DNA of 64,000 nucleotides from Candidatus Hydrogenedens sp. Its GTDB lineage: Bacteria > Hydrogenedentota > Hydrogenedentia > Hydrogenedentales > Hydrogenedentaceae. A model generated the notes under the pieces. The model made no database searches. It had not been told where the DNA came from and saw nothing but the letters and a program-made list of their open reading frames with translations. Each line of letters starts with the position of its first letter. Position 1 is the first letter of the stretch. Where the stretch lies: NCBI GenBank assembly GCA_049968235.1, contig JBMFRC010000009.1:68913-132912 (forward strand), read 5' to 3'. Position numbers and translations under genes: made by a program. Shown piece after piece: positions 48,787 to 64,000 of this stretch.

Positions 48787-49555
48787 ATATGAGACCTCTG
48801 AATAAGTCATTCGAGTTAGCTAGTATGTATAAAGATATTATATACGAGAGGGGGTGAAAAAAAAATGAAACGAGATAAGAGAGAAAAGTGCTATAAATAT
48901 AGCAGAAGTATTTTGGGTTAAATAACAAAGCAAGGGAAAAATAAAAATGAAGGAAAATCAACGTAGTATGGTAAAAAAGATAGAGCAAACAAGTTTTATA
49001 GATTACGAGATGTTCCATCAGAAACCGCCTCGTCGTAGATGTTCTTTGAGGCAGATGCAAGAAGTAATACTATGGAAGGAACTTGGGTAGAGGGCGTATA
49101 GGGAGGAGTATATAAGGTGAACAGGGGAGAACGAAGACTTACGTCCTTACTATTTTATGCATTATTGAGCAGTGCGTGATAATGTCTATGTGCTTTTGTG
49201 GCTATTACATCCAAATCTTTACCTTTTCTTTTCTCAGTATTTTCTTTGGTTGATTATATTTTTTCCCCACTACCAAAGAACACGGAGGTGCATGGAGGAT
49301 ACGGTGGGGTACAGTGAGACATAGGGAGAGGAGTATATCATTTCTTCTGAATGACTAAATATATTTGAAATGGATGTATGATTAGAGGTATGCATAGATA
49401 CAAAAAGATAGAAAACGGACAGAAAAAACAAAATAAATTGATAAAAGTAGAAATACAGACTTTTGTATTTTAATTTCTCATCGGGATTTTATCTCGTAAA
49501 AATATATATAATTTATACCATTACCTCTTACACCACTTTTTCAGAGGTCTCATAT
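48787..49555. mobile_element. 769-bp non-coding element bounded by a perfect 16-bp inverted repeat (ATATGAGACCTCTGAA). MITE-like, or a candidate invertible segment.
   Basis: Left end 48787-48802 is the reverse complement of right end 49540-49555. No credible ORF inside. Internal imperfect repeats (AGGGAG(G/AG)GAGTATAT twice). The right repeat overlaps the last codons of the methyltransferase gene. Confidence 0.45.
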
Positions 49556-50503
49556 CTTTTTTTGGTCCCTCAATGTATTCCGTTCCCAGAATACTCCATC
49601 CACATAGCCTTGAATTGTTCTATCAGAGTTGGCTAATTCTAATCGTTTTTCTGCTAAACAGCAATAAGTTTCGTCGATTTCTACCCCGCAATATTGCCTT
49701 CCTAATTTTTTAGCCACAACACATGTAGTCCCTACACCCGAAAACGGGTCAAATATAAAATCACCTTCTTTTGAACTGGCAAGGATAATTTTCGCTACGA
49801 GTTTCTCCGGTTTTTGTGTTGGATGGTCTGTATTCTCAGGCATAGACCAGAACGGCACAGTTATATCTGTCCATAAATTAGAAGGATATGTAAGCCGATA
49901 ATTGCCATCGGTTTCTACTTTCCAATCTTTAGGGTTACCTGTTTCATCACGATAAGGTGCAATTACTTTCCGTTTCAGCATTACCGCTTTGCTATTAAAA
50001 TAAAATTTATTTGAGACCGTTCCAAACCATATATCTTCCGAACAATTTTTCCAGTTATTCTTCGCACCTCTACCTTTTTCCCGTTCCCATGTAATTCGAT
50101 TTCGCACCTTAAAATATTTTGACATAACTCGATAAATAGCGGAGGAAGATTTCCAATCTCCACAGATATAAATAGAACCTGTCTGCTTTAATATCTTTCT
50201 CAACGGTTTTAACCAGGAATCCATCCATATTTCATACTCTTCCGAAGACATTTCACGAAATTTATTCGAATTAAAGTCTTTATGCAAATTATAAGGGGGG
50301 TCTATAAATAACAAATCAACAAATGATTCAGGTAAAAAGTCAATAACTTCAAACAAATCTTGATGAAGAATTTTGTTGGTTATCTTCTCAACCGATACAG
50401 GATGGTTAATTCGTAAAATCTGTTTCGTATAAATCGATACTTCTTGTTTTGAGAGGGTTGTTGTCCTATTCCGTCCTGCTTTAAGATGTTTATCTACTGA
50501 CAT
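49550..50503 (-). CDS. Beta-class DNA (N6-adenine or N4-cytosine) methyltransferase, apparently orphan.
   Basis: Motif IV DPPY (LLFIDPPYNL) comes before motif I (IFDPFSGVGTT). No restriction endonuclease gene is adjacent. Confidence 0.8.
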   Translation of the reverse strand: MSVDKHLKAGRNRTTTLSKQEVSIYTKQILRINHPVSVEKITNKILHQDLFEVIDFLPESFVDLLFIDPPYNLHKDFNSNKFREMSSEEYEIWMDSWLKPLRKILKQTGSIYICGDWKSSSAIYRVMSKYFKVRNRITWEREKGRGAKNNWKNCSEDIWFGTVSNKFYFNSKAVMLKRKVIAPYRDETGNPKDWKVETDGNYRLTYPSNLWTDITVPFWSMPENTDHPTQKPEKLVAKIILASSKEGDFIFDPFSGVGTTCVVAKKLGRQYCGVEIDETYCCLAEKRLELANSDRTIQGYVDGVFWERNTLRDQKKI

Positions 50504-50556
50504 ACCTACTTTTTTGTAGTCGTATTATATACGAGCAAATCCTTTTTAATAAATAA

Positions 50557-50915
50557 TGGTGGAGGCGGCGGGAATCGAACCCGCGTCCGAAGATGTTTCA
50601 GTGCGGACCTACTACATGCTTAGCCCATCCTTTATAGATTCGCCATTGCGGAGCGCCTCAGGGCGGGCTCACCACAACCGCTATGCGGGATAGTTACTGC
50701 CTTTCAGGCACCGCAAATCCCAAAAGGACAGACCTGCTGGTTGACGCCCCAGTCCGTTAGCAGGCAATCACGGGTGGGACGCGCTGCGCGTATTAGGCAG
50801 CGAGGGCCAATTCTTGATTGGCAGTTGTTTGCGACCGGCTTTTAACGAGGCCAACCGGTCAACCTCGGCATGCATTCCACACCTCAACCATCCCCGTCGA
50901 AACCTTTTCGCCCCC
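50557..50915 (-). ncRNA. ssrA: tmRNA (SsrA).
   Basis: On the - strand the 5' end is GGGGGCGAAAAGGTTTCGACGGGG. The 3' tRNA-like end is GGACGCGGGTTCGATTCCCGCCGCCTCCACCA. The internal tag reading frame ends ...GCC AAT CAA GAA TTG GCC CTC GCT GCC TAA (ANQELALAA-stop). Confidence 0.9.
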
Positions 50916-51079
50916 AGCAACATCCTATTATTCAATTGTTGTATTATATTATACGATATTTGATATCTAAAAATTTACAATAAAGATAAATTTTTTCAAT
51001 AATATATTATTCTATTACTTATGTTGTCCCTATCTTTCTGGCTAAGATAAAATTAGACATGTCGAGAGGAAGTGAAGTA

Positions 51080-52719
51080 ATGAAAAATTTCTTCTCAAAA
51101 AAATCCTGCAAATCAATCTACTACCCTTTTGGATTCATTTTTTCTATCGTGCTAATTAATACGATTGCAAATAGTGAAGGAAATCAACCAACATCTTTAT
51201 CTACAACAATAGACCCCATTACTCGTTATATTCACATTTCATATACAGTCCCTGCAGGTACACCCGGAGAAAAACAATCTTATGCTCATGATCTCCTATG
51301 GACAGACAACACATAGTCCTGAAACAAACCCATTACTACACAGGTTATACCGAAAGTAGAATTGATTATATTAAGTTAGTCCCCTTATCCACAGAACAGG
51401 TACAAATGTTAGAAAGCCAATTTGGAACACCCGACAAAATCGTTGCAGGCTATTTTGAACCTTACTCATGGGCATTCTTCGAGGATATACAGGAAAGCCT
51501 GCAACATCGAGAACCTATTTCCACATATAAGGAAGCACGAGTTAATATCGTAGACATCCAGGTGGGTCGCTTCGGCATGAAAGTCGTTTATGAATCACGC
51601 TTAACCGACCAATTTCTTTACAACACTATCGGCGACCCTATCGGCGGTGTTATCCCCCATACAAGTAATGTCGGAAAAATGCAACAAATGACCAACACAT
51701 TACAAACCGAACTCCAATATGCCCACGAATTAGGCTTAACCGCACACGCCAACTTCGGAGCGACCTACTGCTATCCCGACACACCATTACAAAGTGATTT
51801 TTCAAAACAACACCCCGATTGGATGACGGACGGATTATTGAGATATGACATACCCGAAGTTCGTCAATATATCTTATCCTTACTAAAAGAGACGCTTGAA
51901 ATTGGTGCAGATGGCATCTCCATAGATTTTTGTAGGTATCCCGGTGGTATTGACAAACCTGAAACTTGCAATCAATTCCTGCGAGAACTCAAAGCACTAC
52001 GCGAAGAATTTGCAAAAAAACGTGATAAATCCATACCCTTATTACTCCGTTTCCCGGCGGAAGGTGTAAGTCTCTGGAAAAATTTCGACTACAACACATG
52101 GATTCATGAAGGATTAGTTGATTACCTCTGCCCAAGCAACATCTAGGGCAGACATATGCACTTCGACATCACCCCATACAGCAACGCCGTTCGTGGCTCA
52201 ACATGCAAACTACTCCCCGTCATTGATGGATTAAGTTGGGGACTCGAAATACCCGCCCTATTCCTATGGCGTATCCATCAACTCTACCAGGCAGGCACCG
52301 ACGGCATTTATGTATACCAATCCGACGCACGCATCTGCACCAATAAACGACCAGAAGACAGACGCTGTATACGACTCATTTCCAGTAGCGAAGCAGTTCA
52401 TAACTGGTGGCAACGATACAACAAACAAAATCAACAATTTAGCAAACGCATCTGGATACAACCCTCCGAAGACGGAGACCTCGAATACCATAACTGGGAA
52501 CGCTGTCGAATCTGGGTAGAAGGAATTACCCCTAACGAGGTCCAAATCCTCCTCGATGGACAACTCACCAATACTTATACTCAACCTCCCTAAATACTTG
52601 GCGGAGAAGATTACACCTACGATAACCTTATCACCCCCGGCACACACACCCTCACCATCCACGCCAAAACACAAGACACCACTCTATCCCAAACTTTCAC
52701 CATCTCCGGCACAAAATAA
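51080..52719 (+). pseudogene. Disrupted GHL10/DUF4015-like glycoside-hydrolase-like gene (frameshift plus two in-frame stops).
   Basis: Signal-peptide ORF in frame 2 (MKNFFSKK...) runs into the frame-1 ORF near 51290-51300. Frame 1 then continues through TAG 52144-52146 and TAA 52591-52593 to TAA 52717. The motif GADGISIDFCRYPGG resembles GHL10 DGIHLDYIRYP. The C-terminus has an Ig-like beta segment (YTYDNLITPGTHTLTIHAKTQDTTLSQTFTISG). Confidence 0.55.
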
Positions 52720-52792
52720 TAAGAACATTTATATTTCCGAACATCTTTCTCCCTTTTAAGAGATGAAACATTTTTTGTTCCTAAATTTTGTT

Positions 52793-53056
52793 TTATAAGG
52801 ATAGAATTACACTATTAGAATCTACCCCATATTTATTGAAATATTGGTTTATATCCTTATAATGTTTTATTCGGTGAGGGTCCAAATAATACAATTCCCA
52901 ATGGCTAAGACTATTTATTATATAGTCCATGATTCTTTCATATTCTCTTTCATTCCGAATCACGTGTTCGTAATAATTCCTTTGCCATGACTTCCTGTTT
53001 TCGTTTTCCAATCCAAAATTCTTATCCCCACATATATAGCCATTTGTTGTCATCAT
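52793..53056 (-). mobile_element. C-terminal fragment of an IS200/IS605-family Y1 (REP-associated, RAYT-like) transposase. Probably a remnant.
   Basis: WQRNYYEHVIRNEREYERIMDYIINSL parallels the RAYT/TnpA(IS200) C-terminus (FWEHAIRN..DY...DYI..NP). The HUH-containing N-terminal half is missing. Confidence 0.5.
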
Positions 53057-53155
53057 CTTAAATCACTGTAATACTTTTGACAGTAATACCTACGATGATA
53101 CTTGTATTGGCAAATCCATGTGTTCACTTTAAATATTAATAACATCTACAGAATT

Positions 53156-54500: not shown

Positions 54501-56867
54501 TTATTTTACTTTTAATTCTGTTATAACAATGCTATATGGTGGAATTTCCATTTCAGGGAAGGCTTTCTTATTGATTTTTTCTTCCTTCAGCCAGACGCCA
54601 GGTTCAGTATCAGGCAGGTTAATGGACATTGGGTCTTTGCCCGTGAGTATCCATGCGGTTTTCGGTGGTGTCACCTCCTTGCCTGCTACACCTACATGGA
54701 TATTAATTGCCCTATCCATGGGGTTTACCACAGAGAGAGTTAATATCCCCTCTTGCCCATCTTTCCAGGCAGAGAAAACATCAATTGGTACCATAGATAC
54801 CCCTGCCTGATTGCTATCGGATAGCGGTTTTACCTCGACAGCTACAGGCACAGAACCGAAATGCTGACGGTACAGCATCAGGGTAAGCCCTGTCGTATCA
54901 AAGAAAGCAGTTGTTTTGGTAGTTTTAATGGCAGATATTACATTTACAGTCTGGGCATAATTTGCCATCGTTATTACATCACTATTGCGGAAAAATTCAT
55001 GCAGACCAATAGCCACGCCTAAGGCATCTTTCAGGTGGTAAACACAACCTAACTCACCATAGACATGGTCGCCATACCAATAGTTCCATTCGTCCATTGC
55101 AATGGGCACAAATTTCTCCTTTAAAGCAGGTATCGTTTCCAAATAACCTTTATGATTTTTAACTTTGGCTTTTATTCTCTCGGCTAACTGGTAAACATGT
55201 TCAAGCACATCCTTTTTTTCTCCACAATAAAAGTGTTCACTTATAAAATCCATATTATTTGCACAATTTTCCAGCATTTTCTGGCTCCAGATACCCATAT
55301 TTTCGCCTACACCCACTAACTTAATATTCGGGTCAACTGCTTTCATTGCTTGCGCAAATTCATTATGCCTCTTAACATAGTCATCCACAGGGATATGTCC
55401 CAATTGCCACTCGCCATACATTTCATTGCCAACGCCCCAGTAGGTAATTTTGTATGGTTCGGGGTTGCCATTATCGGCACGCCATTTGCCCATAGGAGTA
55501 TCAACTGAGCCATTAGCATATTCGACCATATCACGTGCTAACTGCACATCGCCCAGACCTGTATTAACCACCGCCAACGGTTCTGTTCCTATTTCTCTAC
55601 AGAATTGGATAAATTCGTCTATACCAAAATCATTGGTATCAATACCTCCCCAGGCTGGGTTCTTGCGTGTTGGACGTTTATCCGGGTCTCCAATGCCGTC
55701 TTTCCAGTTATAACCACTGACGAAATTGCCACCAGGCCAGCGATAAATGGGCGAATTAAGTTGTCTAAGCAAGGTTAATGTATCCGCTCTCATCCCTTTG
55801 ATATTATCTCCAGGCATAAGTGAGACCGCACCAATGAATAGGTTACCCTGCCCTGTAGCAAGAATAGCAAATTGAGCAGGTTTGCCATCTTTATCCACTT
55901 TCAATCGGAATGTATATTTCTGATAATCCTGTGAAATATTTTGGATAATAGCGGGTTCGCCCAATAAAGTGTCGCCAGAACGAAGGACAATTTTAACTAT
56001 AACATCCGTATGCGTCGATTTTAGCACAATCCTACCCACATATTCCTTACCTGCAACCACTTCTAATCCATCCTGCACCAGCCCCCGTTCATGCCTCTGA
56101 TTTAGCAGTATAACAGGCGAATACCAACTCGTATATGGATGAATCTGATCAATAAAGAGCATCATGTCCGATGGGAACAATTTCCATGGGGAATCGTTGG
56201 TGTTGATGAGGTAGAAGAACTTGCGGTCTTCCAGCGTTTCTGCCCAGATACCACCATAAATACAGCGACCTAAATGTTCGATAAATTGACCGTAGATAAA
56301 TGGATGTATCGGAGTGCCTTTCTTTGAGGGGTCGATAGAAATGTTCATATCACCTATCACCATATCTGATATTTTTTCTAATTTTATATCATCAAATATG
56401 GCGGAACCTTTCGCCAAACCCCAACCCCCAAAAAGGCAATTCACCATAATTCGTGTTTGTGAACCGACAAAAAAGGTAGATTCAACATATTTCCAATCAT
56501 TCGTTCCGGATAATGCTTCTGTGCGAGCACCATCAATTCCATGAACATTGAGTAATGCACCCACACCATTTTCTAATTGAATGTTATCTGTTTTAATCCA
56601 GCCGGAGAGTTTGTATTGGGCAAATGGGTCAACATCAATTTCATTGAACCAGGATAAATCACCACCTTCGGTGGAAGAAATCTGGACTGCATTGCCACTT
56701 TTCCCCGGTACGGGATATTGGAATTCACCTTTACCCTGCCAGACCCTTGTCTGCCAGTTATCAGGGGCAGTTGAGCCCTGTTCGAAGGCTTCTTCAAACA
56801 TGATTTGAGCAAAAACAAAAGGGGTTAAAAGGATAAACATTACGAATATGACTGAGTTTGGTTTCAT
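54501..56867 (-). CDS. Secreted GH51 alpha-L-arabinofuranosidase with an N-terminal carbohydrate-binding (galactose-binding-like) module.
   Basis: Signal peptide. YWGVGNEMYGEWQLGH carries the GH51 acid/base Glu. IAMDEWNYW carries the GH51 nucleophile Glu. An N-terminal beta-sandwich region of about 170 aa. Confidence 0.8.
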   Translation of the reverse strand: MKPNSVIFVMFILLTPFVFAQIMFEEAFEQGSTAPDNWQTRVWQGKGEFQYPVPGKSGNAVQISSTEGGDLSWFNEIDVDPFAQYKLSGWIKTDNIQLENGVGALLNVHGIDGARTEALSGTNDWKYVESTFFVGSQTRIMVNCLFGGWGLAKGSAIFDDIKLEKISDMVIGDMNISIDPSKKGTPIHPFIYGQFIEHLGRCIYGGIWAETLEDRKFFYLINTNDSPWKLFPSDMMLFIDQIHPYTSWYSPVILLNQRHERGLVQDGLEVVAGKEYVGRIVLKSTHTDVIVKIVLRSGDTLLGEPAIIQNISQDYQKYTFRLKVDKDGKPAQFAILATGQGNLFIGAVSLMPGDNIKGMRADTLTLLRQLNSPIYRWPGGNFVSGYNWKDGIGDPDKRPTRKNPAWGGIDTNDFGIDEFIQFCREIGTEPLAVVNTGLGDVQLARDMVEYANGSVDTPMGKWRADNGNPEPYKITYWGVGNEMYGEWQLGHIPVDDYVKRHNEFAQAMKAVDPNIKLVGVGENMGIWSQKMLENCANNMDFISEHFYCGEKKDVLEHVYQLAERIKAKVKNHKGYLETIPALKEKFVPIAMDEWNYWYGDHVYGELGCVYHLKDALGVAIGLHEFFRNSDVITMANYAQTVNVISAIKTTKTTAFFDTTGLTLMLYRQHFGSVPVAVEVKPLSDSNQAGVSMVPIDVFSAWKDGQEGILTLSVVNPMDRAINIHVGVAGKEVTPPKTAWILTGKDPMSINLPDTEPGVWLKEEKINKKAFPEMEIPPYSIVITELKVK

Positions 56868-56946
56868 ATTTGTTTCTCCATGTTTGGATTTAATAATTGT
56901 TATGGCAAAAAAGGAAAGATAAATGCAAATAAAGTTGGGGGAGAAT

Positions 56947-56974
56947 CGGACGGGTCGGACGGGTCAGACGGGGT
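56947..56974. repeat. 9-bp tandem repeat array A, (CGGACGGGT)x3 in GTCRGACRR register, just 5' of tRNA-Pro.
   Basis: The same family is seen in arrays at 57113-57168, 57544-57598 and 57786-57822. Confidence 0.7.
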
Positions 56975-57024
56975 GATGGTGAAATTGCTATTTTTGAGGT
57001 AGAATAGATATAATAGTGTTGTTT

Positions 57025-57102
57025 CGGGGCGTAGCGCAGTCCGGCTAGCGCACTTGGTTTGGGTCCAAGGGGTCGCCGGTTCAAATCCGGCCGCCCCGAC
57101 CA
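57025..57102 (+). tRNA. tRNA-Pro (TGG).
   Basis: Acceptor CGGGGCG/CGCCCCG, anticodon stem-loop CTTGG-TTTGGGT-CCAAG, T-arm GCCGG-TTCAAAT-CCGGC, discriminator A, CCA encoded. Confidence 0.85.
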
Positions 57103-57112
57103 TGAAGTTAAA

Positions 57113-57168
57113 GGGTCAGACAAGTCAGACGGGTCGGACAGGTCAGACAAGTCGGACAAGTCGGACGA
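57113..57168. repeat. 9-bp tandem repeat array B, (GTCRGACRR)x6, immediately 3' of tRNA-Pro.
   Basis: Reads GTCAGACAA GTCAGACGG GTCGGACAG GTCAGACAA GTCGGACAA GTCGGACGA. Confidence 0.75.
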
Positions 57169-57195
57169 AAAAACACAAAATAGAAAGGAAGGGTT

Positions 57196-57786
57196 ATGTC
57201 TGATGGGAGGTTAATTCCTCCACATGGGGGCTATCGGAGATTGCGGAGTTTTCAAGTAGCACAGGAGATATATGACGCGACGGTATTGTTTTGTTAGCGG
57301 TTTATTGATAAGAAGTCAAGAACATATGACCAGATGATTCAGGCGAGCAGGAGTGGGGTTCAAAATATTGCAGAAGGGAGTGTGGCGTCTGCGACATCAA
57401 AGAAGATGGAGATTAAGTTGACAGGTGTGGCAAAGGCAAGTTTGGAGGAGTTGTTGCGGGATTATGAGGATTATTTGAGACAACATGGTTTGAAACAATG
57501 GGGTAAGGATTCGCCGGAGGCAGGAAGGATAAGGGAGATGTATAAGTCGGACAGGTTGGACAAGTTAGACGAGGTGGACCCGTCAGACAAGTCGGATATT
57601 TATGGGATAAGGACAGCGTCGGCAGAGGTTGCGGGGAATACGGTGATTTGTTTGATTCATCAGGCGACATATTTGTTGAGGAAGCAGTTAGAACGTTTGG
57701 AACGGGAGTTTTTGGAGAAGGGTGGTTTTACGGAGCGGATGTATTGGGAACGAAAACGTTGGCGAGAGAGAGAGAAGAAAGAGTAG
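57196..57786 (+). CDS. Four-helix-bundle protein (TIGR02436-like, the 23S rRNA IVS-protein family) with a C-terminal suffix domain. The frame is interrupted by one in-frame TAG at 57295-57297.
   Basis: N-terminal helix MSDGRLIPPHGGYRRLRSFQVAQEIYDATVLFC, then TAG, then RFIDKKSRTYDQMIQASRSGVQNIAEGSVASATSKKMEIKLTGVAKASLEEL. All in one frame and matching the family consensus (...QIRRAAVSIPANIAEGS...). Repeat array C lies inside the coding sequence (KSDRLDKLDEVDPSDKSD). Confidence 0.6.
57544..57598. repeat. 9-bp tandem repeat array C (degenerate, x6), inside the four-helix-bundle coding sequence.
   Basis: Reads GTCGGACAG GTTGGACAA GTTAGACGA GGTGGACCC GTCAGACAA GTCGGATAT. Confidence 0.6.
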
Positions 57787-57822
57787 AGTCGGACGGGTCG
57801 GACGGGTCGGACAAGTCGGACA
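57786..57822. repeat. 9-bp tandem repeat array D, (GTCGGACRR)x4, immediately after the four-helix-bundle stop.
   Basis: Reads GTCGGACGG GTCGGACGG GTCGGACAA GTCGGACA. Confidence 0.75.
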
Positions 57823-57958
57823 TTTAAAACAGATAAAAATGAAAAAAAATAAACGAATCAAATTGAAGGCTATACCTCCCGTTAATTTGCCAGGATAATC
57901 CTTCCTATTTTACTATTTGAGTATTCTAATTTTATGAAATTAATAGAAAGGGATTGTC

Positions 57959-60900
57959 ATGGAAAGAAACATTTGTCATTTCATTACGAATCATGAACAA
58001 AAAAGTCTTCGGGAACGTATAAGAGAACTTATTACTATCAGCAAAGAACTTAAAATTTTAGTGGGTTTCTTCTATTTTTCCGGGATAACAGAGTTGTATG
58101 AAAGTTTACAAAAAAATCCTAACATTGTGATTAAAGTGCTTATAGGTATGGATGTCGATAAATTAATTAATAAGTTGATTGAATATGCCAATCCAGACAC
58201 CTCATTAACTGATAAAGATAGAATTGACTATTTTTTTAAATCATTAAAAACGGCTCTTACTTCCGAAGATATGGACCGTCCCGAGCCCTACCGACAGATT
58301 TCTTATTTCCTGAAACTCATCCAGGAAAATCGTATTATCATCCGAAAAACAAGAAAACCCAATCATTCAAAACTTTATATCTTCAAAATATCAGAAGGGC
58401 AGGATTTAATTCGCGATACGCTATTCATCACGGGAAGTAGCAATTTGACACACGCAGGTCTATCGGGACAGGGCGAGTTCAATGTTGAAATAAGTGATTA
58501 TGGAACAAAAGAAGCGGAAGCGTTTTTTGACGATTTATGGGATGATGCAGTGAAAATCACAGAAACAGAGGAAACAAAAAAGAAACTAATCCAGATTATC
58601 AATACGGAAACAATGTTTGCATCGATAAAACCTTTTGAGGCTTATACCCTGGTCCTGAAATCCTACCTTGATGCAAATAGTATGAAAGAGGTTAGTTTAG
58701 AGTCCCTTAAAGAAACTATGGAGAAAAAAGGATATGTGCCTTATAAATATCAGATGGACGCTGTTCAATTAGCTTTATCTATTATCAATGCTTATGACGG
58801 CGTTATTATTGCCGACGTGGTCGGTTTGGGCAAAACGATTATTGCCTGTGCCGTAGCCCGACTTTTAAGAAAACGCGGAATTGTCATCTCTCCACCGGGG
58901 ATTATGGGCGATGAGTTGAGGCAATATGGTTGGCGTAAGTATATCGAAGAATTTGGTCTCTATGACTGGGAGGTTTTTTCCAGCGGGAAACTTGATACCA
59001 TATTGAAAACAGTTCGTAGATGTGAAGATATTGAGGTGATTATCATTGATGAAGCACATAAATACCGCAATCAGGATACAGAAAGTTACGAACTGTTAAA
59101 AAATATATGTCTGCATAAAAAAGTTATCCTTTTAACTGCAACTCCGTTCAGTAATTCTCCCAGTGATGTATTTTCATTACTAAAATTATTTACTGTTCCG
59201 GGCAAATCAAAGTTATCCCTGACTGATAATTTAGATTTTCTGTTTAATGAATACAAAAATACTTTTAATCAATTATCACATATACAAAAATACCATGATT
59301 CGCAAGATGCAGAGAAAAAACAAAAAGCACAGACCTATTATAATAAGTTATTCGGTTCAGATAATATTGATTTAACAACGGTAAAAAAGCGGACAAAATA
59401 CCTTGCCAATACAATTCGCTCAATTATCCAGCCTGTGCTTATACGGCGAAATCGGATTGACCTACAAAATGACCCGGATTACCAAAACGAGATTAAGGAT
59501 TTATCCAGATTAGAAAATCCGAAAGAGTTGTTCTATGAGTTAAGCCCGGACCAATCGCTGTTTTACGATAAAGTTATTAGCACTTACTTTGGTGAAAACG
59601 GTGCATTTTCAGGTGCTATTTATCGCCCGTATTATTACGAAGAAAAATCCGATTTGGAAGATATCGATGAGGATATAGAAACCAATGGTAAGGATGGGAA
59701 AAAAGTGGAGGAACAGAGAGAACAACTAAGCCAGAAAAACTTATATGATTTTATGAGACGATTATTAGTGAAACGATTTGAGAGTTCTTTCGGTGCGTTC
59801 CAACAAAGCGTTAAAAATTTTATTGAGATTCATAAAAAGATACTTCAATTCATTGAAAAAACAAACAAATATATCCTCAATCGCAAGTTATTGGAACATA
59901 TTTATGAAATGGACCCGGATGAAATTGACGAGGAATTAGAACGATTTAAAGAAGAAATTGCAAAATTAGATAAACCCGACTCACATATCCATAAGGTTTA
60001 TGATTTGAAGGACTTCCACTTCAAGGATGAGTTTATTAAAAATATTAATGATGATATTCAATTGTTTGAAGGAATTCTCAAAGAGATTGAAGACCTTCAT
60101 TTGATACAGAAAGACCCGAAATCGAAATCTTTAGCAGAAGAAATCCCAAAAATTATCCAGAATAAAGAAGAAAATGAATCCAAACGAAAGATAGTTATCT
60201 TTACTGAGTATATAGATACAGCCCGCCATTTAGAAGAACAGATGAAGCACTTATTACCCGAAAACTTGAAAAATCGTATTTTAACAGTCATAGGAAAGCC
60301 GTCCGATGACCGTTATGAGACGCTATTAAAAAATTTCGATGCCAGTTATGAAAAGAACCAACAGGAAGATACCTATGACATTCTTATAACAACAGACCGA
60401 CTTTCCGAAGGATTTAATCTGAATCGTGCTGGCGCAGTTATTAATTATGATATTCCGTGGAACCCGACACGGGTCATACAGCGTGTAGGACGAATAAATC
60501 GAATCAGTAAAAAGGTCTACAATACTTTATATATCTACAATTTCTTCCCAACAGAAACAGGTGCTGATGTTGTCAAAAGTCGTGAAATAGCCCAGCATAA
60601 GATGTTCCTCATTCATAATACAATTGGTGAAGATGCCCGTATTTTTGAGCCCGATGAGGAACCTACTGCTTCGCGATTATACACCAAAGTTATGACTCTT
60701 CCGGATGAACTCGAGCCAGAAAGTTTATATACGACCATAAAGAAGAAATATTACGAGATAAAAAAGAACTATCCGGAAGTCATTCGAACCATAGAGAAAT
60801 ACCCTTCACGTGTAAAAACGGCAAAGAAATACCACACCTACAACCTCGTTGTATTTTTAAGAAAAGGCAGAAGTATATTTGTAAAATATACCGATGGAAC

Positions 60901-61357
60901 ACCTGGCACAACCGCTGAAAAACCGCTTGAAGATGCATTGAATTATATCCAGTGTGAATATGAAGAACAACCCCTTCACATTTCAGACAAATTCTGGAAT
61001 AATTATATATCTCTCATTGAAGTAGCAACTACGGATTTTTCAAGAGGAAGGAAAATTTGGACTGAGGCAATGACCAATATTAAAACAATATTGCAACAAT
61101 TACCCGCAGAATTGGATGACTATAAAAGTTTCCTTAACATATTATCAGAAGATATTTCATACTATCGGACATTGTCCGATTATACCATCCGACGAATTCG
61201 AAATCTGAAACTGGATAAGGAAAAACAATTTAAAGAATTTAAAGAGGTCATTGATAAACTGCGAAACGATTTAGGAGATGATTACCTTACTAAAATTAAA
61301 AATGACCTAATATCTATTAAACCAGAAGTTATTATTGCGATGGAGAATCAACCTTAG
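57959..61357 (+). CDS. Fusion of a PLD-family (HKD) nuclease domain with an SNF2/SF2 helicase, 1132 aa.
   Basis: HKD motif NHSKLYIF...FITGSSNLTHAG near the N-terminus. Helicase motif I ADVVGLGKT, motif II IIIDEAHKYRN, motif III LLTATPFSN, motif V-VI ILITTDRLSEGFNLNRAGAVINYDIPWNPTRVIQRVGRINR. Confidence 0.8.
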   Translation: MERNICHFITNHEQKSLRERIRELITISKELKILVGFFYFSGITELYESLQKNPNIVIKVLIGMDVDKLINKLIEYANPDTSLTDKDRIDYFFKSLKTALTSEDMDRPEPYRQISYFLKLIQENRIIIRKTRKPNHSKLYIFKISEGQDLIRDTLFITGSSNLTHAGLSGQGEFNVEISDYGTKEAEAFFDDLWDDAVKITETEETKKKLIQIINTETMFASIKPFEAYTLVLKSYLDANSMKEVSLESLKETMEKKGYVPYKYQMDAVQLALSIINAYDGVIIADVVGLGKTIIACAVARLLRKRGIVISPPGIMGDELRQYGWRKYIEEFGLYDWEVFSSGKLDTILKTVRRCEDIEVIIIDEAHKYRNQDTESYELLKNICLHKKVILLTATPFSNSPSDVFSLLKLFTVPGKSKLSLTDNLDFLFNEYKNTFNQLSHIQKYHDSQDAEKKQKAQTYYNKLFGSDNIDLTTVKKRTKYLANTIRSIIQPVLIRRNRIDLQNDPDYQNEIKDLSRLENPKELFYELSPDQSLFYDKVISTYFGENGAFSGAIYRPYYYEEKSDLEDIDEDIETNGKDGKKVEEQREQLSQKNLYDFMRRLLVKRFESSFGAFQQSVKNFIEIHKKILQFIEKTNKYILNRKLLEHIYEMDPDEIDEELERFKEEIAKLDKPDSHIHKVYDLKDFHFKDEFIKNINDDIQLFEGILKEIEDLHLIQKDPKSKSLAEEIPKIIQNKEENESKRKIVIFTEYIDTARHLEEQMKHLLPENLKNRILTVIGKPSDDRYETLLKNFDASYEKNQQEDTYDILITTDRLSEGFNLNRAGAVINYDIPWNPTRVIQRVGRINRISKKVYNTLYIYNFFPTETGADVVKSREIAQHKMFLIHNTIGEDARIFEPDEEPTASRLYTKVMTLPDELEPESLYTTIKKKYYEIKKNYPEVIRTIEKYPSRVKTAKKYHTYNLVVFLRKGRSIFVKYTDGTPGTTAEKPLEDALNYIQCEYEEQPLHISDKFWNNYISLIEVATTDFSRGRKIWTEAMTNIKTILQQLPAELDDYKSFLNILSEDISYYRTLSDYTIRRIRNLKLDKEKQFKEFKEVIDKLRNDLGDDYLTKIKNDLISIKPEVIIAMENQP

Positions 61358-61380
61358 ACAATTATATAAAGGGGATAAAA

Positions 61381-64000
61381 ATGAACCTGTCTGCCAAAAG
61401 ACATTTAGAGAACTTTATCGGAGCAACAAATTATGATGGGTTACAAAAATCGCTTATATGCTTTTTACAAGAAAAGACGGAACACTTTTCAGAGATGCCT
61501 GAGGACTATTCATTTCATTTTCGGGATGATAATTTTAATGAAGTCCAAAAAGTTGGTGAATTATCTCTAACACCGTCGTATGCTGAAGAAGGAGATAGTA
61601 CAGAAAAATTTATCGTGGTTACACTCCATACCACAGGGGGACTAACAGAGCGGAGTAGTAAAAAGCGTCAGTTCGACAAAGGGAAACAAATATTAAAAAC
61701 TTTGTATCAGACAGGCAATTTTGACCTCATCGGCGGTTTTTTCATTTTTTATGATGACGATTTTAATTATCGTTGGAGTTTGATTTATCAAGAACCGGCG
61801 GGCAGAAGATTACAATATAACCCCTACAAACGATATACCTATTTCGTATCACGAAATTTGACAAATAAAACCTTCATTCAGCAGTTATGTGCGGATGAAT
61901 CCTTTGACAGGTTAAATGACATCAAATCCGCATTCTCCGTAGAAAAGGTTACCCGAGAGTTTTATAACAAGGTGGCACAATGGTATTTCTGGGTGCTATC
62001 TGATGAAAAGATTAAATATCCCCCATCCGTTCCTAACCAAAACAACGGAAGAGAGTTGTTTTTAATCCGTCTCTTATCTCGATTGATTTTTATCTGGTTC
62101 ATGAAAGAGAAAAAACTTATTCCGGGAAAATTGTTCGATAGACAGGAATTAAGAAGCTATCTGCATGATATTGAAGATGACGGAACTGCTTATTACAATG
62201 CCATCCTCCAGAATTTATTCTTCGCTACACTGAACACACCTCAGGACAGACGACAATTCCGCAATGATAAACAATATCAAGGCAAGAATAACGATTACAT
62301 GAACCATAATAAATACAGGTATAAGGAACTATTCAAAAATGAAACGGATATAGAAGAGCTCTTCCAACCGATACCGTTCCTGAACGGCGGTCTATTTGAG
62401 TGTCTGGATAAAAGTAGAAAAGACCCAAAGAACCCGACAGAAGGAGAACTACGGCTGGATGGCTTCTCTTCATCGCATCAAAAACATCCTAATATTAGAA
62501 ATATCTTCTTTTTCGGTGAGGAACAAACGGTCGATATTAGTAAATATTTTGGGGACAATTCATATAAATCCGCAAAGGTTTACGGAATTATTGAAATATT
62601 AAAGGATTACAATTTCACGATTGATGAAAATGTTCCCGGTGATGAAGAAGTTGCCCTTGACCCGGAACTACTCGGAAAAATATTTGAAAATCTGCTTGCC
62701 AGTTATAACGAAGAGACATCGACCACCGCCAGAAAAGCCTCCGGCAGTTATTACACACCCCGCGAGATTGTAGAATTCATGTGTCGTGCTTCTCTGGTGG
62801 AATACCTGAAATTATGCCTGATTAAAAAGGGCTCTGCGGTTGATGTTAACGAGAAATCGCTGGATGAAAAACTTCATCAATTATTAGACCCTCATCAGGA
62901 AGAACTGCCCGTTTTTTCCGAAACGGAAAAGGATACACTCATCCATGCCATTAACAATCTTAAAGTATTGGACCCTGCGGTAGGTTCGGGAGCCTTTTTG
63001 ATGGGAATGTTACAACAACTTGTCCATATCCTATCTAAACTTGACCCACATAATGAGATGTGGAAACAACAGCAGATAGAGGGGGTAAAAAAATCTGTTT
63101 CCGACCCACAACTCCGGAATGAGTTAATCAACAAAATTGAAGAACAATTTCAAAAGAATGAACTGGACTACGGTAGGAAATTATATCTCATCCAGAACTG
63201 CCTGTTTGGTGTGGATATTCAACCTATTGCCATACAACTGGCAAAACTCCGCTTCTTTATCGCACTACTGGTGGATGAAAAGGTTGATAAAACACAGAAA
63301 AACAGCGGGATAGAACCTCTGCCTAATCTTGAAACAAAACTCGTCCCCGCAGATACTCTTCGTTCCTTAAACATAAAAACCGAAGACCTGTCTTCACCCG
63401 AAATACAGGAAGAAGAAAGGAAATTATTCGAGTTAAGAAAAAAATATTTTAGCGAATCAGACCAGAGAAAGAAAGAAACGATAAAAGAGGAGGATAAGAA
63501 AACGCGAAATAGAATAGAAGAATTACTTAAACAGGATTCTTTATATAATGATAAATTAGAAACTATCCTTGCATGGGACCCCTATGATGCCCATATTTCT
63601 GCGGACTGGTTCGACCCTGAATGGATGTTCGGCATCGACACAGGTTTCGACATCGTTATCGCTAATCCGCCGTATATCCAACTGCAAAAAGAGGGAGGGA
63701 AACTCGCTAAATTATACGAAAAACAAAACTACCAGACCTTTGCCCGCACGGGCGATATTTATGCCCTTTTTTACGAAAAAGGAATTCAAATACTGAGAGA
63801 TGGAGGACATCTTTGCTTCATTACCTCAAATAAATGGATGCGTGCGGGCTATGGTGAAAAATTGCGGAGTTTTTTTACACAATACAACCCATTGCTTCTT
63901 ATCGATTTGGGACCTGGTGTGTTTGAAAATGCTACTGTCGATACCAATATATTGCTGATACAAAAAAAGCAAACTCCAGCAAAACACCTCAAAGCCGTAA
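61381..64000 (+). CDS. Large gamma-class N6-adenine DNA methyltransferase (Eco57I/PglX/DrmMI/type IIG-like). 3' partial at the window edge.
   Basis: GSYYTPREIVEFM, motif I VLDPAVGSGAFL and motif IV IANPPYIQ, with motif I before motif IV. Long N-terminal region of about 400 aa, as in PglX-like enzymes. No stop before the window ends. Confidence 0.8.
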   Translation, partial: MNLSAKRHLENFIGATNYDGLQKSLICFLQEKTEHFSEMPEDYSFHFRDDNFNEVQKVGELSLTPSYAEEGDSTEKFIVVTLHTTGGLTERSSKKRQFDKGKQILKTLYQTGNFDLIGGFFIFYDDDFNYRWSLIYQEPAGRRLQYNPYKRYTYFVSRNLTNKTFIQQLCADESFDRLNDIKSAFSVEKVTREFYNKVAQWYFWVLSDEKIKYPPSVPNQNNGRELFLIRLLSRLIFIWFMKEKKLIPGKLFDRQELRSYLHDIEDDGTAYYNAILQNLFFATLNTPQDRRQFRNDKQYQGKNNDYMNHNKYRYKELFKNETDIEELFQPIPFLNGGLFECLDKSRKDPKNPTEGELRLDGFSSSHQKHPNIRNIFFFGEEQTVDISKYFGDNSYKSAKVYGIIEILKDYNFTIDENVPGDEEVALDPELLGKIFENLLASYNEETSTTARKASGSYYTPREIVEFMCRASLVEYLKLCLIKKGSAVDVNEKSLDEKLHQLLDPHQEELPVFSETEKDTLIHAINNLKVLDPAVGSGAFLMGMLQQLVHILSKLDPHNEMWKQQQIEGVKKSVSDPQLRNELINKIEEQFQKNELDYGRKLYLIQNCLFGVDIQPIAIQLAKLRFFIALLVDEKVDKTQKNSGIEPLPNLETKLVPADTLRSLNIKTEDLSSPEIQEEERKLFELRKKYFSESDQRKKETIKEEDKKTRNRIEELLKQDSLYNDKLETILAWDPYDAHISADWFDPEWMFGIDTGFDIVIANPPYIQLQKEGGKLAKLYEKQNYQTFARTGDIYALFYEKGIQILRDGGHLCFITSNKWMRAGYGEKLRSFFTQYNPLLLIDLGPGVFENATVDTNILLIQKKQTPAKHLKAV

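What the first reader, a model, noticed from the sequence alone, without database searches (positions are those of the whole stretch)
56947..57822. Four arrays of a 9-bp tandem repeat (GTCRGACRR) bracket tRNA-Pro and a four-helix-bundle gene, and one array is translated
The arrays lie at 56947-56974 (x3), 57113-57168 (x6), 57544-57598 (x6, degenerate) and 57786-57822 (x4). Arrays A and B flank tRNA-Pro. Arrays B and D flank the four-helix-bundle gene. Array C is inside its coding sequence and encodes an SD(K/R)xD-type acidic tract. The 9-bp periodicity keeps the reading frame, so the coding array could expand and contract without frameshifting. The intergenic copies could be recombination or regulatory sites, or the footprint of the element that delivered the gene. 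No CRISPR-like spacers are present.
Basis: seen in the sequence. Interest (0 to 1): 0.55.

Follow-up and report, generated by a model that had tools for sequence, protein, structure and literature searches.

The report
Repeat arrays that travel with a small gene
The four 9-bp repeat arrays are real, and they reveal an apparently undescribed rule: across many bacterial phyla, this small four-helix-bundle gene carries the same short palindromic repeat in its coding linker and often just outside both ends, here at a spot where neighbouring defence genes have been swapped between strains.

Summary
Thirteen of the 14 GTCRGACRR matches in the 64-kb window lie at 56954-57814, all on the + strand (1.4 expected). 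The arrays bracket tRNA-Pro(TGG) and a "four helix bundle suffix domain" gene (TIGR02436 + TIGR04258).

Array C is the family's hallmark. It encodes the disordered (SDx)n loop between helices 3 and 4, found in all 28 aligned homologues out of at least 8000 hits.

- **Flanking arrays:** about 30% of 83 loci from more than 15 phyla (strict test; 63% lenient) have arrays next to the gene, against about 0.1% of control windows.
- **Clade match:** two protein clades use different units (GTCNGACNN and AGGWCCTAT). Each locus's flanks carry only its own clade's unit.
- **Nucleotide-level selection:** the coding arrays are constrained beyond the protein's needs (x-codon third base G in 92-95% against 32-34%).
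- **Instability:** copy numbers differ between Hydrogenedens strains in all four arrays, and strain synteny ends inside array D.

My best reading is that the repeats are cis-acting, fold-back-prone elements of a selfish gene cassette that lodges in operons and beside tRNAs. The mechanism is inferred, not shown. I found no description in the searched literature.

The parts
56945..56971 (+). Array A: 3 units (ATCGGACGG GTCGGACGG GTCAGACGG). Non-coding. It ends 14 bp upstream of the -35-like hexamer of the tRNA-Pro promoter-like site.
   Evidence: The array has about 11 units in L001/L002 and is absent in L004.
56985..57014 (+). Promoter-like site TTGCTA-18-TATAAT (10 of 12 matches), ending 10 bp before tRNA-Pro.
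   Evidence: a consensus match only. The site is conserved in L001.
57025..57102 (+). tRNA-Pro (anticodon TGG).
   Evidence: ARAGORN; Rfam RF00005, 64.7 bits. The tRNA is identical in L001 and L004.
57115..57168 (+). Array B: 6 exact units of GTCRGACRR. It lies between the tRNA 3' end and the ribosome-binding site of the gene.
   Evidence: It has 5 units in L001 and is degenerate in L004. As RNA it folds back as a zipper hairpin, -20.3 kcal/mol, z = -5.4.
57196..57786 (+). Gene for a four-helix-bundle suffix-domain protein (196 codons plus stop), interrupted by an in-frame TAG at 57295-57297. Probably a recent pseudogene. NCBI annotates only the 150-aa ORF 57334-57786.
   Evidence: TIGR04258 scores 73.1 bits (cut-off 40) and TIGR02436 scores 33.8 bits (cut-off 24). 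Translation. P0002 is the 150-aa annotated product from Candidatus Hydrogenedens sp.. The AF2 model of the 91%-identical orthologue has pLDDT 86. Foldseek matches 2GSC, 2RLD and 8UB7_B.
57546..57599 (+). Array C: 6 units, 4 of them degenerate, read in frame as SDR-LDK-LDE-VDP-SDK-SD. This is the disordered loop between helix 3 and helix 4 of the bundle.
   Evidence: The linker is conserved in all homologues aligned. The loop corresponds to residues 116-136 of the model. It has 4 units in L001.
57788..57823 (+). Array D: 4 units, starting 2 nt after the stop codon. Nucleotide homology to the sister strains ends here.
   Evidence: blastn homology to L001/L002 and L004 stops at window 57821. Alignment. 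As RNA it folds back at -16 kcal/mol, z = -3.6.
57959..61357 (+). PLD (HKD) nuclease plus SNF2 helicase gene, a candidate defence gene. It has lower G+C (32-38%) and is not orthologous to the HmaA/HmaB genes at the same position in L001/L004. It is context for the arrays, not part of the cassette.
   Evidence: Pfam and NCBIfam; PADLOC HKD+Snf2 and DrmD-like; composition; comparison with L001.

Best explanation
The four arrays are the nucleotide signature of one small gene cassette, the "four helix bundle suffix domain" gene.

Array C is the in-frame tract that encodes the disordered (SDx)n loop between helices 3 and 4. Arrays A, B and D are non-coding copies of the same 9-bp unit. They accompany the gene on its upstream side and start directly after its stop codon.

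The unit has a 7-bp palindromic core, GTCNGAC. It is kept by selection acting on the nucleic acid, not only on the protein. The arrays can fold back on themselves, and they gain and lose whole units by slippage or unequal exchange.

I infer that the arrays are cis-acting parts of a selfish cassette that lodges between genes of operons, especially just upstream of defence nucleases and helicases, and next to tRNA 3' ends. The role I think most likely is at the DNA level: repeat-rich, fold-back-prone ends where the cassette and the DNA beside it are joined, exchanged and rearranged. In this window, that is how the defence gene downstream of array D came to differ from the one in the sister strains.

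Shown: the architecture, the clade-specific match of flank and linker units, the nucleotide-level constraint, the copy-number changes and the synteny breakpoint. Inferred: that the arrays have a function at all, and that the function is recombination rather than regulation.
For: 1. Family and linker. The protein matches TIGR02436 and TIGR04258 above their cut-offs. The search returned 8000 hits, which is its cap. All 28 aligned homologues carry an SDx linker of variable length at the same place. That place is a low-confidence loop between helices in the AF2 model.

2. Flank arrays are a family trait. Period-9 TRF arrays occur at 0.97 and 0.90 per kb in the 150 bp upstream and downstream of the gene, against 0.028 per kb further away, in 83 loci. 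By strict motif tests, 13 of 38 SD-clade and 12 of 45 YT-clade loci have an array of their own motif in a flank. This compares with 2 of 1785 and 1 of 2111 control windows, and 0 of 82 flanks for the other clade's motif. A lenient test gives 52 of 83 loci.

3. The two motifs follow two protein clades. The nearest neighbour by non-linker columns is of the same class in 78 of 79 cases. One genome, L013, carries one gene of each clade side by side, each with its own linker type.

4. Nucleotide-level constraint in the coding arrays.
- SD clade: Ser is TCN in 117 of 117 Ser codons (AGY is 49% elsewhere in the same genes). Asp is GAC in 83% against 56%. The third base of the free x codon is G in 77 of 84 against 34% (p = 4e-28).
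- YT clade: Tyr is TAT in 97% against 57%. The x-codon third base is G in 72 of 76 against 32% (p = 8e-31). Arg is AGG in 41 of 43 against 13%. Asn/Asp codons end in T in 43 of 43 against 43%.

5. Turnover between strains (window / L001 / L004): A has 3 / about 11 / 0 units, B has 6 / 5 / degenerate, C has 6 / 4 / about 7, and D has 4 / about 15 / 8. All changes are whole-unit indels.

6. Breakpoint. The window is 89-91% identical to L001/L002 up to window 57821, inside array D, and unrelated beyond it. L001 and L004 share HmaA/HmaB downstream.

7. Cassette behaviour. The gene sits between cas7 and cas4, and upstream of hsdR, in both clades. It sits next to the 3' end of five different tRNAs. 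Five of 83 copies carry a lone nonsense codon.

8. Fold-back. Arrays B and D, and arrays at other loci, fold better than shuffles, with z from -3.5 to -6.6. YT-clade arrays are arranged T..T A..A, which makes perfect hairpins, and start at the second base of the stop codon (in roughly 17 of 45 YT loci).
Against: - No recombinase, transposase or integrase was found next to the gene, and the protein is a plain helical bundle.
- No matched pair of filled and empty sites was found.
- The recombination role rests on one breakpoint among three strains. Any tandem repeat is fragile, so the breakpoint could be incidental.
- An internal recombination site would be harmful, and I found no sign of N-half/C-half mosaics among 3403 pairs.
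- By the strict test only about 30% of loci have clear flank arrays, so the arrays are not required for the gene to persist.
- GTCNGACNN arrays also occur far from this gene. Only 13 of 120 metagenome loci with such arrays hold the gene, and the others lie beside or inside assorted housekeeping genes.
- The position right after the stop codon and in the 5' leader fits an RNA-level role equally well.
Confidence: 0.4

Rival explanations
1. Regulatory elements at the RNA or DNA level. The arrays would be fold-back hairpins in the 5' leader, inside the ORF and just after the stop codon. Alternatively they would be tandem operator sites in duplex DNA. They would be bound by the four-helix-bundle protein itself, a relative of the nucleic-acid-binding DGR cofactor Avd, or by a host factor. 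Their role would be to autoregulate the gene, to process or stabilise its mRNA within a host operon, or to set expression of the nuclease or helicase gene immediately downstream.
For: - Array positions are typical of mRNA leaders and 3' stem-loops. Downstream arrays start 0-12 nt after the stop codon, and upstream arrays end 13-90 nt before the start.
- Fold-back stability exceeds that of shuffles.
- An internal, nucleotide-constrained motif is easier to explain as a binding or structure site than as a recombination site.
- The fold resembles PF05635 proteins and Avd in the DGR ribonucleoprotein 8UB7 (PMC10053308).
- The gene is co-oriented with, and tightly coupled to, downstream hsdR, cas4 or SNF2 genes.
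- Clade-specific motifs are what protein-site co-evolution would give.
Against: - There is no excess of wobble-compatible substitutions in non-coding arrays: 14 tolerated against 13 not tolerated, from small counts.
- The SD-type fold-backs are weak: 3-bp helices separated by 1x1 and 2x2 internal loops.
- Array A lies upstream of the tRNA promoter-like site, so it is probably not in the transcript.
- No binding data exist for any member of the family.
- Pentameric Avd-like symmetry does not match a two-fold palindromic site. This point comes from my own knowledge and was not tested.
Confidence: 0.27
2. Neutral by-product. The coding microsatellite that encodes the linker occasionally spills over by local duplication, template switching or gene conversion. 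The copies then drift in number. The flank arrays have no function, and the breakpoint at array D only reflects the fragility of repeats.
For: - Only about 30% of loci have clear flank arrays.
- Array A arose in one lineage only.
- Units within this locus differ only by A/G transitions, which suggests young arrays.
- Copy numbers are unstable.
- There is no evidence that RNA pairing is being preserved.
Against: - This does not explain why the free x codon ends in G in 92-95% of units, why Arg is AGG in 95%, or why Asn/Asp codons end in T in 100%, across genes that are only 55-80% identical in protein sequence.
- It does not explain the fixed placement of downstream arrays at the stop codon in both clades.
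- It does not explain the T..T A..A hairpin arrangement.
- Arrays are retained in short spacers before cas4 in loci about 80% identical at the nucleotide level.
Confidence: 0.17
3. A REP/RAYT-like system. The four-helix-bundle suffix protein would be the trans-acting partner of a dispersed family of 9-bp palindromic arrays. It would bind them or help them spread, and its own gene would be flanked and invaded by them because the activity is biased towards nearby DNA.
For: - The gene is flanked by its cognate repeat, and the repeat type follows the protein clade, as with RAYT genes and REP classes.
- GTCNGACNN arrays occur at many other places in metagenomes. Some lie in frame inside MutS, TopA, DnaE, DinB, ScpB and RecQ genes.
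- About 12 extra arrays were seen in 766 kb of array-seeded loci.
Against: - In this 64-kb window every array lies at the gene.
- In gene-centred loci, arrays further than 150 bp from the gene are rare.
- The protein has no HUH or any other catalytic domain.
- Arrays found away from the gene show no common context, and some are ordinary coding repeats such as collagen-like GPT.
- Whether genomes with dispersed arrays also encode the protein could not be tested.
Confidence: 0.08
4. A contingency (phase-variation) locus. Changes in repeat number would switch or tune the gene or its neighbours, as simple-sequence repeats do in restriction-modification genes of host-adapted pathogens.
For: Copy number differs between strains in all four arrays. 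The arrays sit beside defence genes. Array A abuts a promoter-like site.
Against: A 9-bp unit cannot switch a reading frame on and off. The motif is conserved across phyla and clades, which is not expected for a locally evolved switch. Within-population variation was not examined.
Confidence: 0.05

Closest known systems
Four helix bundle suffix domain-containing protein family (NCBIfam TIGR04258 with TIGR02436; Pfam PF05635 superfamily)
   Same: The window gene matches both NCBIfam models above their cut-offs. Its (SDx)n linker lies at the family's usual place, and its orthologue is predicted to have the PF05635 fold.
   Different: This copy carries an in-frame stop codon. The family is named but has no known function. 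I found no paper on it or on repeat arrays beside its genes in the searchable library.
23S rRNA intervening sequences (IVS) that encode a PF05635 protein (Leptospira, Coxiella; PMC4990558)
   Same: Both are a small insert that carries a gene of the same fold superfamily, is bounded by self-complementary sequence, and sits inside a host transcription unit. The IVS is regarded as a selfish element.
   Different: There is no rRNA here; Rfam finds only the tRNA. The ends are tandem 9-bp arrays, mostly in direct orientation, rather than one long inverted repeat. The same repeat also lies inside the coding sequence.
REP elements and their RAYT genes (from my own knowledge)
   Same: Both involve short palindromic repeats that flank a gene, with the repeat type matching the gene's clade.
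   Different: RAYTs are HUH Y1 transposases and REPs are dispersed in hundreds of copies. Here the protein is a helical bundle, and in the window the repeats are confined to the locus.
Rickettsia palindromic elements (from my own knowledge)
   Same: Both are palindromic repeats that can sit in frame inside protein-coding genes and be translated as an extra loop.
   Different: RPEs are single insertions of about 100-150 bp. These are tandem arrays of a 9-bp unit and are tied to one gene family.
Tandem short operator arrays such as MetJ metboxes (8-bp palindromes) or omega-repressor heptads (from my own knowledge)
   Same: Both are head-to-tail arrays of a short, partly palindromic unit with a variable number of units.
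   Different: No binding protein is known here, and an array also lies inside the coding sequence.
DGR accessory protein Avd
   Same: It has the same four-helix-bundle fold: Foldseek hit 8UB7_B with TM 0.74 normalised to the target. The homology is noted in PMC10053308.
   Different: No reverse transcriptase domain was found in the genes on either side. Template and variable repeats were not looked for.

Membership tests
Four helix bundle suffix domain-containing protein (TIGR04258 + TIGR02436) | C-terminal suffix domain matches TIGR04258 above the curated cut-off | tested here: met
   73.1 bits against a cut-off of 40, residues 143-190.
Four helix bundle suffix domain-containing protein (TIGR04258 + TIGR02436) | N-terminal part matches TIGR02436 above the curated cut-off | tested here: met
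   33.8 bits against a cut-off of 24, residues 17-87.
Four helix bundle suffix domain-containing protein (TIGR04258 + TIGR02436) | Four-helix-bundle fold with helix 4 supplied after the linker | tested here: met
   The AF2 model of the 91%-identical orthologue P0001 has pLDDT 86, helices at 17-36, 42-64, 69-96 and 137-169, and a loop at 116-136. The best PDB matches are 2GSC and 2RLD.
Four helix bundle suffix domain-containing protein (TIGR04258 + TIGR02436) | Intact open reading frame | tested here: not met
   There is a TAG at codon 34 (57295-57297), where the closest intact homologue has GAG. Four other copies among the 83 loci also have a lone nonsense codon.
23S rRNA intervening-sequence protein (Pfam PF05635) as part of an rRNA IVS | Pfam PF05635 match above the gathering score | tested here: not met
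   28.8 bits against a gathering score of 33.8 for the window protein. Most close homologues carry a precomputed PF05635 hit.
23S rRNA intervening-sequence protein (Pfam PF05635) as part of an rRNA IVS | The gene lies inside a 23S rRNA gene | tested here: not met
   An Rfam scan of 56000-64000 finds only tRNA-Pro. The neighbours are an arabinofuranosidase gene and a helicase gene.
Diversity-generating retroelement (Avd component) | Adjacent reverse transcriptase and template/variable repeat pair | tested here: not met
   No RT domain was found in the flanking genes. TR/VR repeats were not searched for.
REP/RAYT system | The gene is flanked by its cognate palindromic repeats | tested here: met
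   Arrays B and D flank the gene. Across loci the flanks carry only the clade's own motif.
REP/RAYT system | The protein is an HUH Y1 transposase | tested here: not met
   No such domain was found, and the fold is a helical bundle.
REP/RAYT system | Repeats are dispersed through the genome in many copies | tested here: inconclusive
   In the 64-kb window they are not dispersed: 13 of 14 hits are at the locus. Whole genomes could not be scanned. Arrays do occur elsewhere in metagenomes.
CRISPR array | Repeats of about 23-50 bp separated by unique spacers of similar length | tested here: not met
   The units are 9 bp and lie head to tail without spacers.
Simple-sequence contingency locus (phase variation) | Repeat number varies between close strains | tested here: met
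   Array A has 3 units against about 11 against 0. B has 6 against 5. C has 6 against 4. D has 4 against about 15 against 8.
Simple-sequence contingency locus (phase variation) | A change in repeat number switches a reading frame or promoter on and off | tested here: not met
   The 9-bp unit keeps the reading frame. The effect on promoters was not testable.
Integron gene cassette | attC site with an integron integrase and attI nearby | not tested
   No integrase domain was seen in the immediate neighbours. No attC model was run.

The most novel reading that the evidence does not exclude
The 9-bp palindromic arrays and the four-helix-bundle suffix protein form a previously unrecognised repeat-plus-protein system. 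The protein would recognise its clade-specific repeat on DNA or RNA. The arrays would be the cis sites through which the cassette inserts itself just upstream of defence nucleases and helicases and beside tRNAs. The arrays would also be the joints at which neighbouring defence genes are exchanged between strains. If so, this is a new kind of small mobile or regulatory module shaping defence islands in many phyla.
Probability: 0.15. Interest if true: 0.85.

Novelty: new variant of a known kind. Interest (0 to 1): 0.62.

Why it matters
The gene family is very large: at least 8000 close homologues, and at least 582 loci among species-representative genomes. It sits inside or beside CRISPR-Cas, type I restriction and other defence operons, and it has no known function.

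The same short palindromic repeat is kept inside its coding sequence against synonymous drift, and reappears just outside the gene in a clade-specific way. That gives the family its first concrete, testable handle: a candidate nucleic-acid partner.

If the arrays are recombination joints, they would help explain how defence genes are swapped at fixed chromosomal spots. If they are binding or structural sites, they point to a regulator of defence nucleases.

This is also a clear case of a protein linker whose sequence is dictated by the DNA rather than by the protein.

Tried and rejected
- **Chance or a generic simple-sequence repeat in this genome.** Rejected.
- **CRISPR-like array.** Rejected: no spacers.
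- **Flank arrays as remnants of decayed tandem gene copies.** Rejected: there is no residual similarity to the coding sequence next to arrays A, B or D.
- **Host-genome effect**, in which each genome's own repeat colonises the loop. Rejected: the linker type follows the protein clade (78 of 79), and one genome carries both clades side by side.
- **RNA-pairing signature.** Wobble-compatible and incompatible transitions in non-coding arrays were 14 against 13. This is uninformative.
- **Shuffling of N- and C-terminal halves at array C.** No mosaic pairs were found among 3403.
- **Phage origin.** Only 1 locus in 2.9 million viral contigs.
- **Known defence component.** The protein has no PADLOC hit.
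- **Known RNA family.** Rfam finds only the tRNA.
- **Excision footprints.** Arrays without the gene are not found in cas or hsd contexts. They lie in assorted housekeeping contexts.
- **Arrays at contig ends**, as a sign of a dispersed repeat. The excess is only weak: 14 against 6.4 expected.
- **Literature.** Searches for the family names and accession numbers returned nothing on the arrays.
- **Window 61.4-64 kb.** The short ORFs gave no Pfam hit.
- **An error of my own.** One of my context queries (hsdSc) was in fact a cas7 gene, so the hsdS_up labels of that call are unreliable. I did not use them.
Full report
**Observation.** Reading 56500-58300, running Tandem Repeats Finder and searching for the pattern confirm four head-to-tail arrays of a 9-bp unit on the + strand.
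- A lies at 56945-56971 (3 units).
- B lies at 57115-57168 (6 exact units).
- C lies at 57546-57599 (6 units, 4 of them degenerate).
- D lies at 57788-57823 (4 units).

The window holds 14 exact GTCRGACRR matches where 1.44 are expected, and no shuffle reaches 14. Thirteen of them lie in these 860 bp. tRNA-Pro(TGG) lies at 57025-57102, between A and B. A promoter-like site (TTGCTA-18-TATAAT, 56985-57014) lies between A and the tRNA.

**The gene.** The ORF 57196-57786 matches TIGR02436 (33.8 bits, cut-off 24) and the "four helix bundle suffix domain" TIGR04258 (73.1 bits, cut-off 40). It has an in-frame TAG at codon 34, where the 91%-identical orthologue has GAG. GenBank annotates only the 150-aa remainder, in a Candidatus Hydrogenedens sp. 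MAG (P0002). Five of 83 copies surveyed carry a lone nonsense codon at various positions. The window-L001 comparison shows relatively more non-synonymous change than L001-L004: 11 non-synonymous to 13 synonymous codon differences, against 33 to 67. I therefore read the window copy as a recent pseudogene, although a sequencing error cannot be excluded.

**Array C is the family's linker.** The homology search returned 8000 hits, which is its cap. All 28 homologues aligned carry an SDx tract of variable length at the same position. In an AlphaFold model of the intact orthologue (pLDDT 86), that position is a low-confidence loop (residues 116-136). It lies between helix 3 and a long helix (137-169) that completes the bundle. 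The best PDB matches are the PF05635 proteins 2GSC and 2RLD, followed by Avd in the DGR ribonucleoprotein 8UB7.

**Related loci.** Three contigs from related Hydrogenedens MAGs (L001-L002, L004; L003 carries only the gene and its arrays) keep the same neighbourhood: arabinofuranosidase, tRNA-Pro, this gene, then a helicase. The arrays keep their boundaries but differ by whole units (window / L001 / L004):
- A: 3 / about 11 / 0.
- B: 6 / 5 / degenerate.
- C: 6 / 4 / about 7.
- D: 4 / about 15 / 8.

Nucleotide identity of 89-91% between the window and L001/L002 runs from the left flank through A, the tRNA, B and the gene, and stops at 57821, inside D. Beyond D the window carries a PLD+SNF2 gene of lower G+C. 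L001 and L004 share HmaA/HmaB-type genes there. Array D therefore marks the point where a defence gene was exchanged.

**Family-wide survey.** A scan of one genome per species found at least 582 loci, of which 80 were fetched. They come from Armatimonadota, Planctomycetota, Nitrospirota, Acidobacteriota, Kiritimatiellota, Chloroflexota, Desulfobacterota, Verrucomicrobiota, Omnitrophota and other phyla, at 56-72% protein identity.

Period-9 tandem arrays are about 33 times denser in the 150 bp on either side of the gene than further away: 0.97 and 0.90 against 0.028 per kb.

The proteins fall into two clades by their non-linker columns; the nearest neighbour is of the same class in 78 of 79 cases.
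- One clade has the (SDx)n linker, built from G-TCN-GAC-NN.
- The other has an RSYxTYxTY linker, built from AGG-WCY-TAT.
- A few loci use CGGWCCGAT or similar units.

The flanks carry the clade's own unit in 13 of 38 and 12 of 45 loci by a strict test. This compares with 2 of 1785 and 1 of 2111 control windows, and the other clade's unit never appears. A lenient test gives 52 of 83 loci. One genome carries one gene of each clade in tandem, each with its own linker type. The repeat type is therefore a property of the gene lineage, not of the host genome.

**Selection on the nucleotides.**
- SD clade: serine in the repeat is always TCN (117 of 117 Ser codons; AGY is 49% elsewhere in the same genes). 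Aspartate is GAC in 83% against 56%. The free x codon ends in G in 77 of 84 units against 34% (p = 4e-28). Amino acids without an NNG codon are almost absent from x.
- YT clade: Tyr is TAT in 97% against 57%. The x codon ends in G in 72 of 76 units. Arg is AGG in 41 of 43 against 13%. The preceding Asn/Asp codon ends in T in 43 of 43 against 43%.

No requirement of the protein explains these choices. The conserved bases form odd palindromes: GTCNGAC, ATAGGWCCTAT and CGGWCCG.

The arrays fold back on themselves better than shuffled controls, with z from -3.5 to -6.6. In the YT clade, units with a T centre are followed by units with an A centre, which makes perfect hairpins. The downstream array begins at the second base of the stop codon in many loci (roughly 17 of 45 by my reading).

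**Context.**
- Immediate neighbours are enriched for Cas7 upstream (9 loci) and Cas4 downstream (11).
- They are also enriched for HsdS upstream (5) and for HsdR or SNF2-type helicases downstream (8-10).
- Both clades occur in both contexts.
- Other neighbours are ordinary housekeeping genes.
- Eight of the 11 tRNA genes in the 83 loci lie within 165 bp of the gene. These represent five independent tRNAs, and in every case the tRNA's 3' end faces the gene.
- The protein is not in PADLOC and is almost absent from viral contigs.
- PF05635 has been listed among CRISPR-linked genes (PMC10910872, figure legend) and equated with Avd (PMC10053308).
- I found nothing about the suffix family or its repeats in the searchable literature.

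**Arrays elsewhere.** Only 13 of them contain the gene. That is far more than chance placement would give, but it shows the motif class is not exclusive to the gene. Other hits are intergenic, or lie in frame as SDx loops in MutS, TopA, DnaE, GyrA, DinB, ScpB and RecQ genes. Some are unrelated coding repeats such as collagen-like GPT. Their neighbours show no common theme. Because the pattern itself forces the palindrome, these hits say little about selection.

**Interpretation.** The following are shown:
- the architecture;
- the clade-specific match of the repeat inside and outside the gene;
- the nucleotide-level constraint;
- rapid copy-number change;
- one synteny breakpoint inside an array.

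I infer that the arrays are cis-acting parts of a selfish cassette. My first choice, at about 0.4, is a DNA-level role as recombination-prone ends and joints. A regulatory role on RNA or duplex DNA, possibly with the protein itself as the binder, is nearly as likely at about 0.27. It explains the internal array better. A neutral spill-over of the coding microsatellite (about 0.17) does not explain the codon-level constraint or the fixed placement. A REP/RAYT-like system (about 0.08) remains possible.

Tests for RNA-specific wobble tolerance and for exchange of protein halves at array C were negative or uninformative.

**Verdict.** The finding is real. Its local reading is partly right, and it opens onto a family-wide pattern that appears to be undescribed. 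The gene is a member, probably an inactivated one, of a known and named family. The repeat architecture around it is a new variant of the known theme of small repeat-bounded selfish inserts.

Noticed in passing
window 57295-57297: There is an in-frame TAG at codon 34 of the four-helix-bundle gene, where the orthologue has GAG. Four other copies among 83 loci (L004, L024, L059, L083) and the second gene in L013 also carry a single nonsense codon, at different positions.
   Followed up: partly
window 57824-61357, compared with L001 4393-10339 and L004 6631-12552: The defence gene after array D differs between strains. The window has a PLD(HKD)+SNF2 gene with 32-38% G+C. L001 and L004 have HmaA-like helicase and HmaB-like DUF1156 methylase genes.
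   Followed up: yes
window 61358-64000: About 2.6 kb after the helicase gene has no ORF longer than 80 aa on either strand. The short ORFs have no Pfam hit and there is no Rfam hit. This could be decayed genes or something non-coding.
   Followed up: partly
window 49550-53155: The region contains tmRNA (50557-50915, - strand) with a DNA methylase gene on one side (49550-50503). On the other side is a 2.2-kb segment holding a 282-aa ORF with no Pfam hit. That segment has no nucleotide match in L002 or L004, which carry an AbiJ-TIR gene there instead. It looks like a second strain-variable spot next to a small RNA gene.
   Followed up: partly
L013 5731-5818: Two sequences that look to me like single CRISPR repeats lie between the two tandem four-helix-bundle genes. 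GTCGCCCCCCGTGCGGGGGCGTGGATTGAAAC resembles a type I-C repeat, and GGTTTTCCCCGCACGAGCGGGGATGAACCG resembles a type I-E repeat. They are about 30 nt apart. This resemblance rests on memory only.
   Followed up: no
L125, L155, L158, L202, L132, L122 (metagenome loci): GTCNGACNN arrays lie in frame as SDx insertions inside housekeeping genes of DNA metabolism. These are MutS domain III, TopA (two arrays), DnaE, DinB, ScpB and the GyrA tail.
   Followed up: partly
L124 3045-4988 (- strand): One open frame runs from a RecQ-type helicase (DEAD, Helicase_C, RecQ_Zn_bind) through an SDx array into a four-helix-bundle suffix gene. This is either a fusion or an artefact of the stop-free array.
   Followed up: no
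L084 3381-3468; L034 1786-1811, 6503-6535, 8582-8618: SDx-type arrays also sit in frame inside neighbouring type I restriction genes (near the C-terminal part of hsdM; in an hsdR-like ORF) within a few kb of the four-helix-bundle gene. The gene identities rest on motifs I recognised by eye; no family search was run on these ORFs.
   Followed up: partly
window 57000-57999: GC skew is strongly positive (+0.35 to +0.40) across the tRNA, gene and array segment, against -0.26 to +0.12 in the flanks. The variable positions of all four arrays are purines on the + strand.
   Followed up: no
YT-clade loci, for example L044, L052, L062, L064, L075: The gene's stop codon TAG is itself the start of the downstream repeat (T-AGGWCCTAT). 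In the gene's reading frame, the array repeats a TAG every 9 nt.
   Followed up: partly
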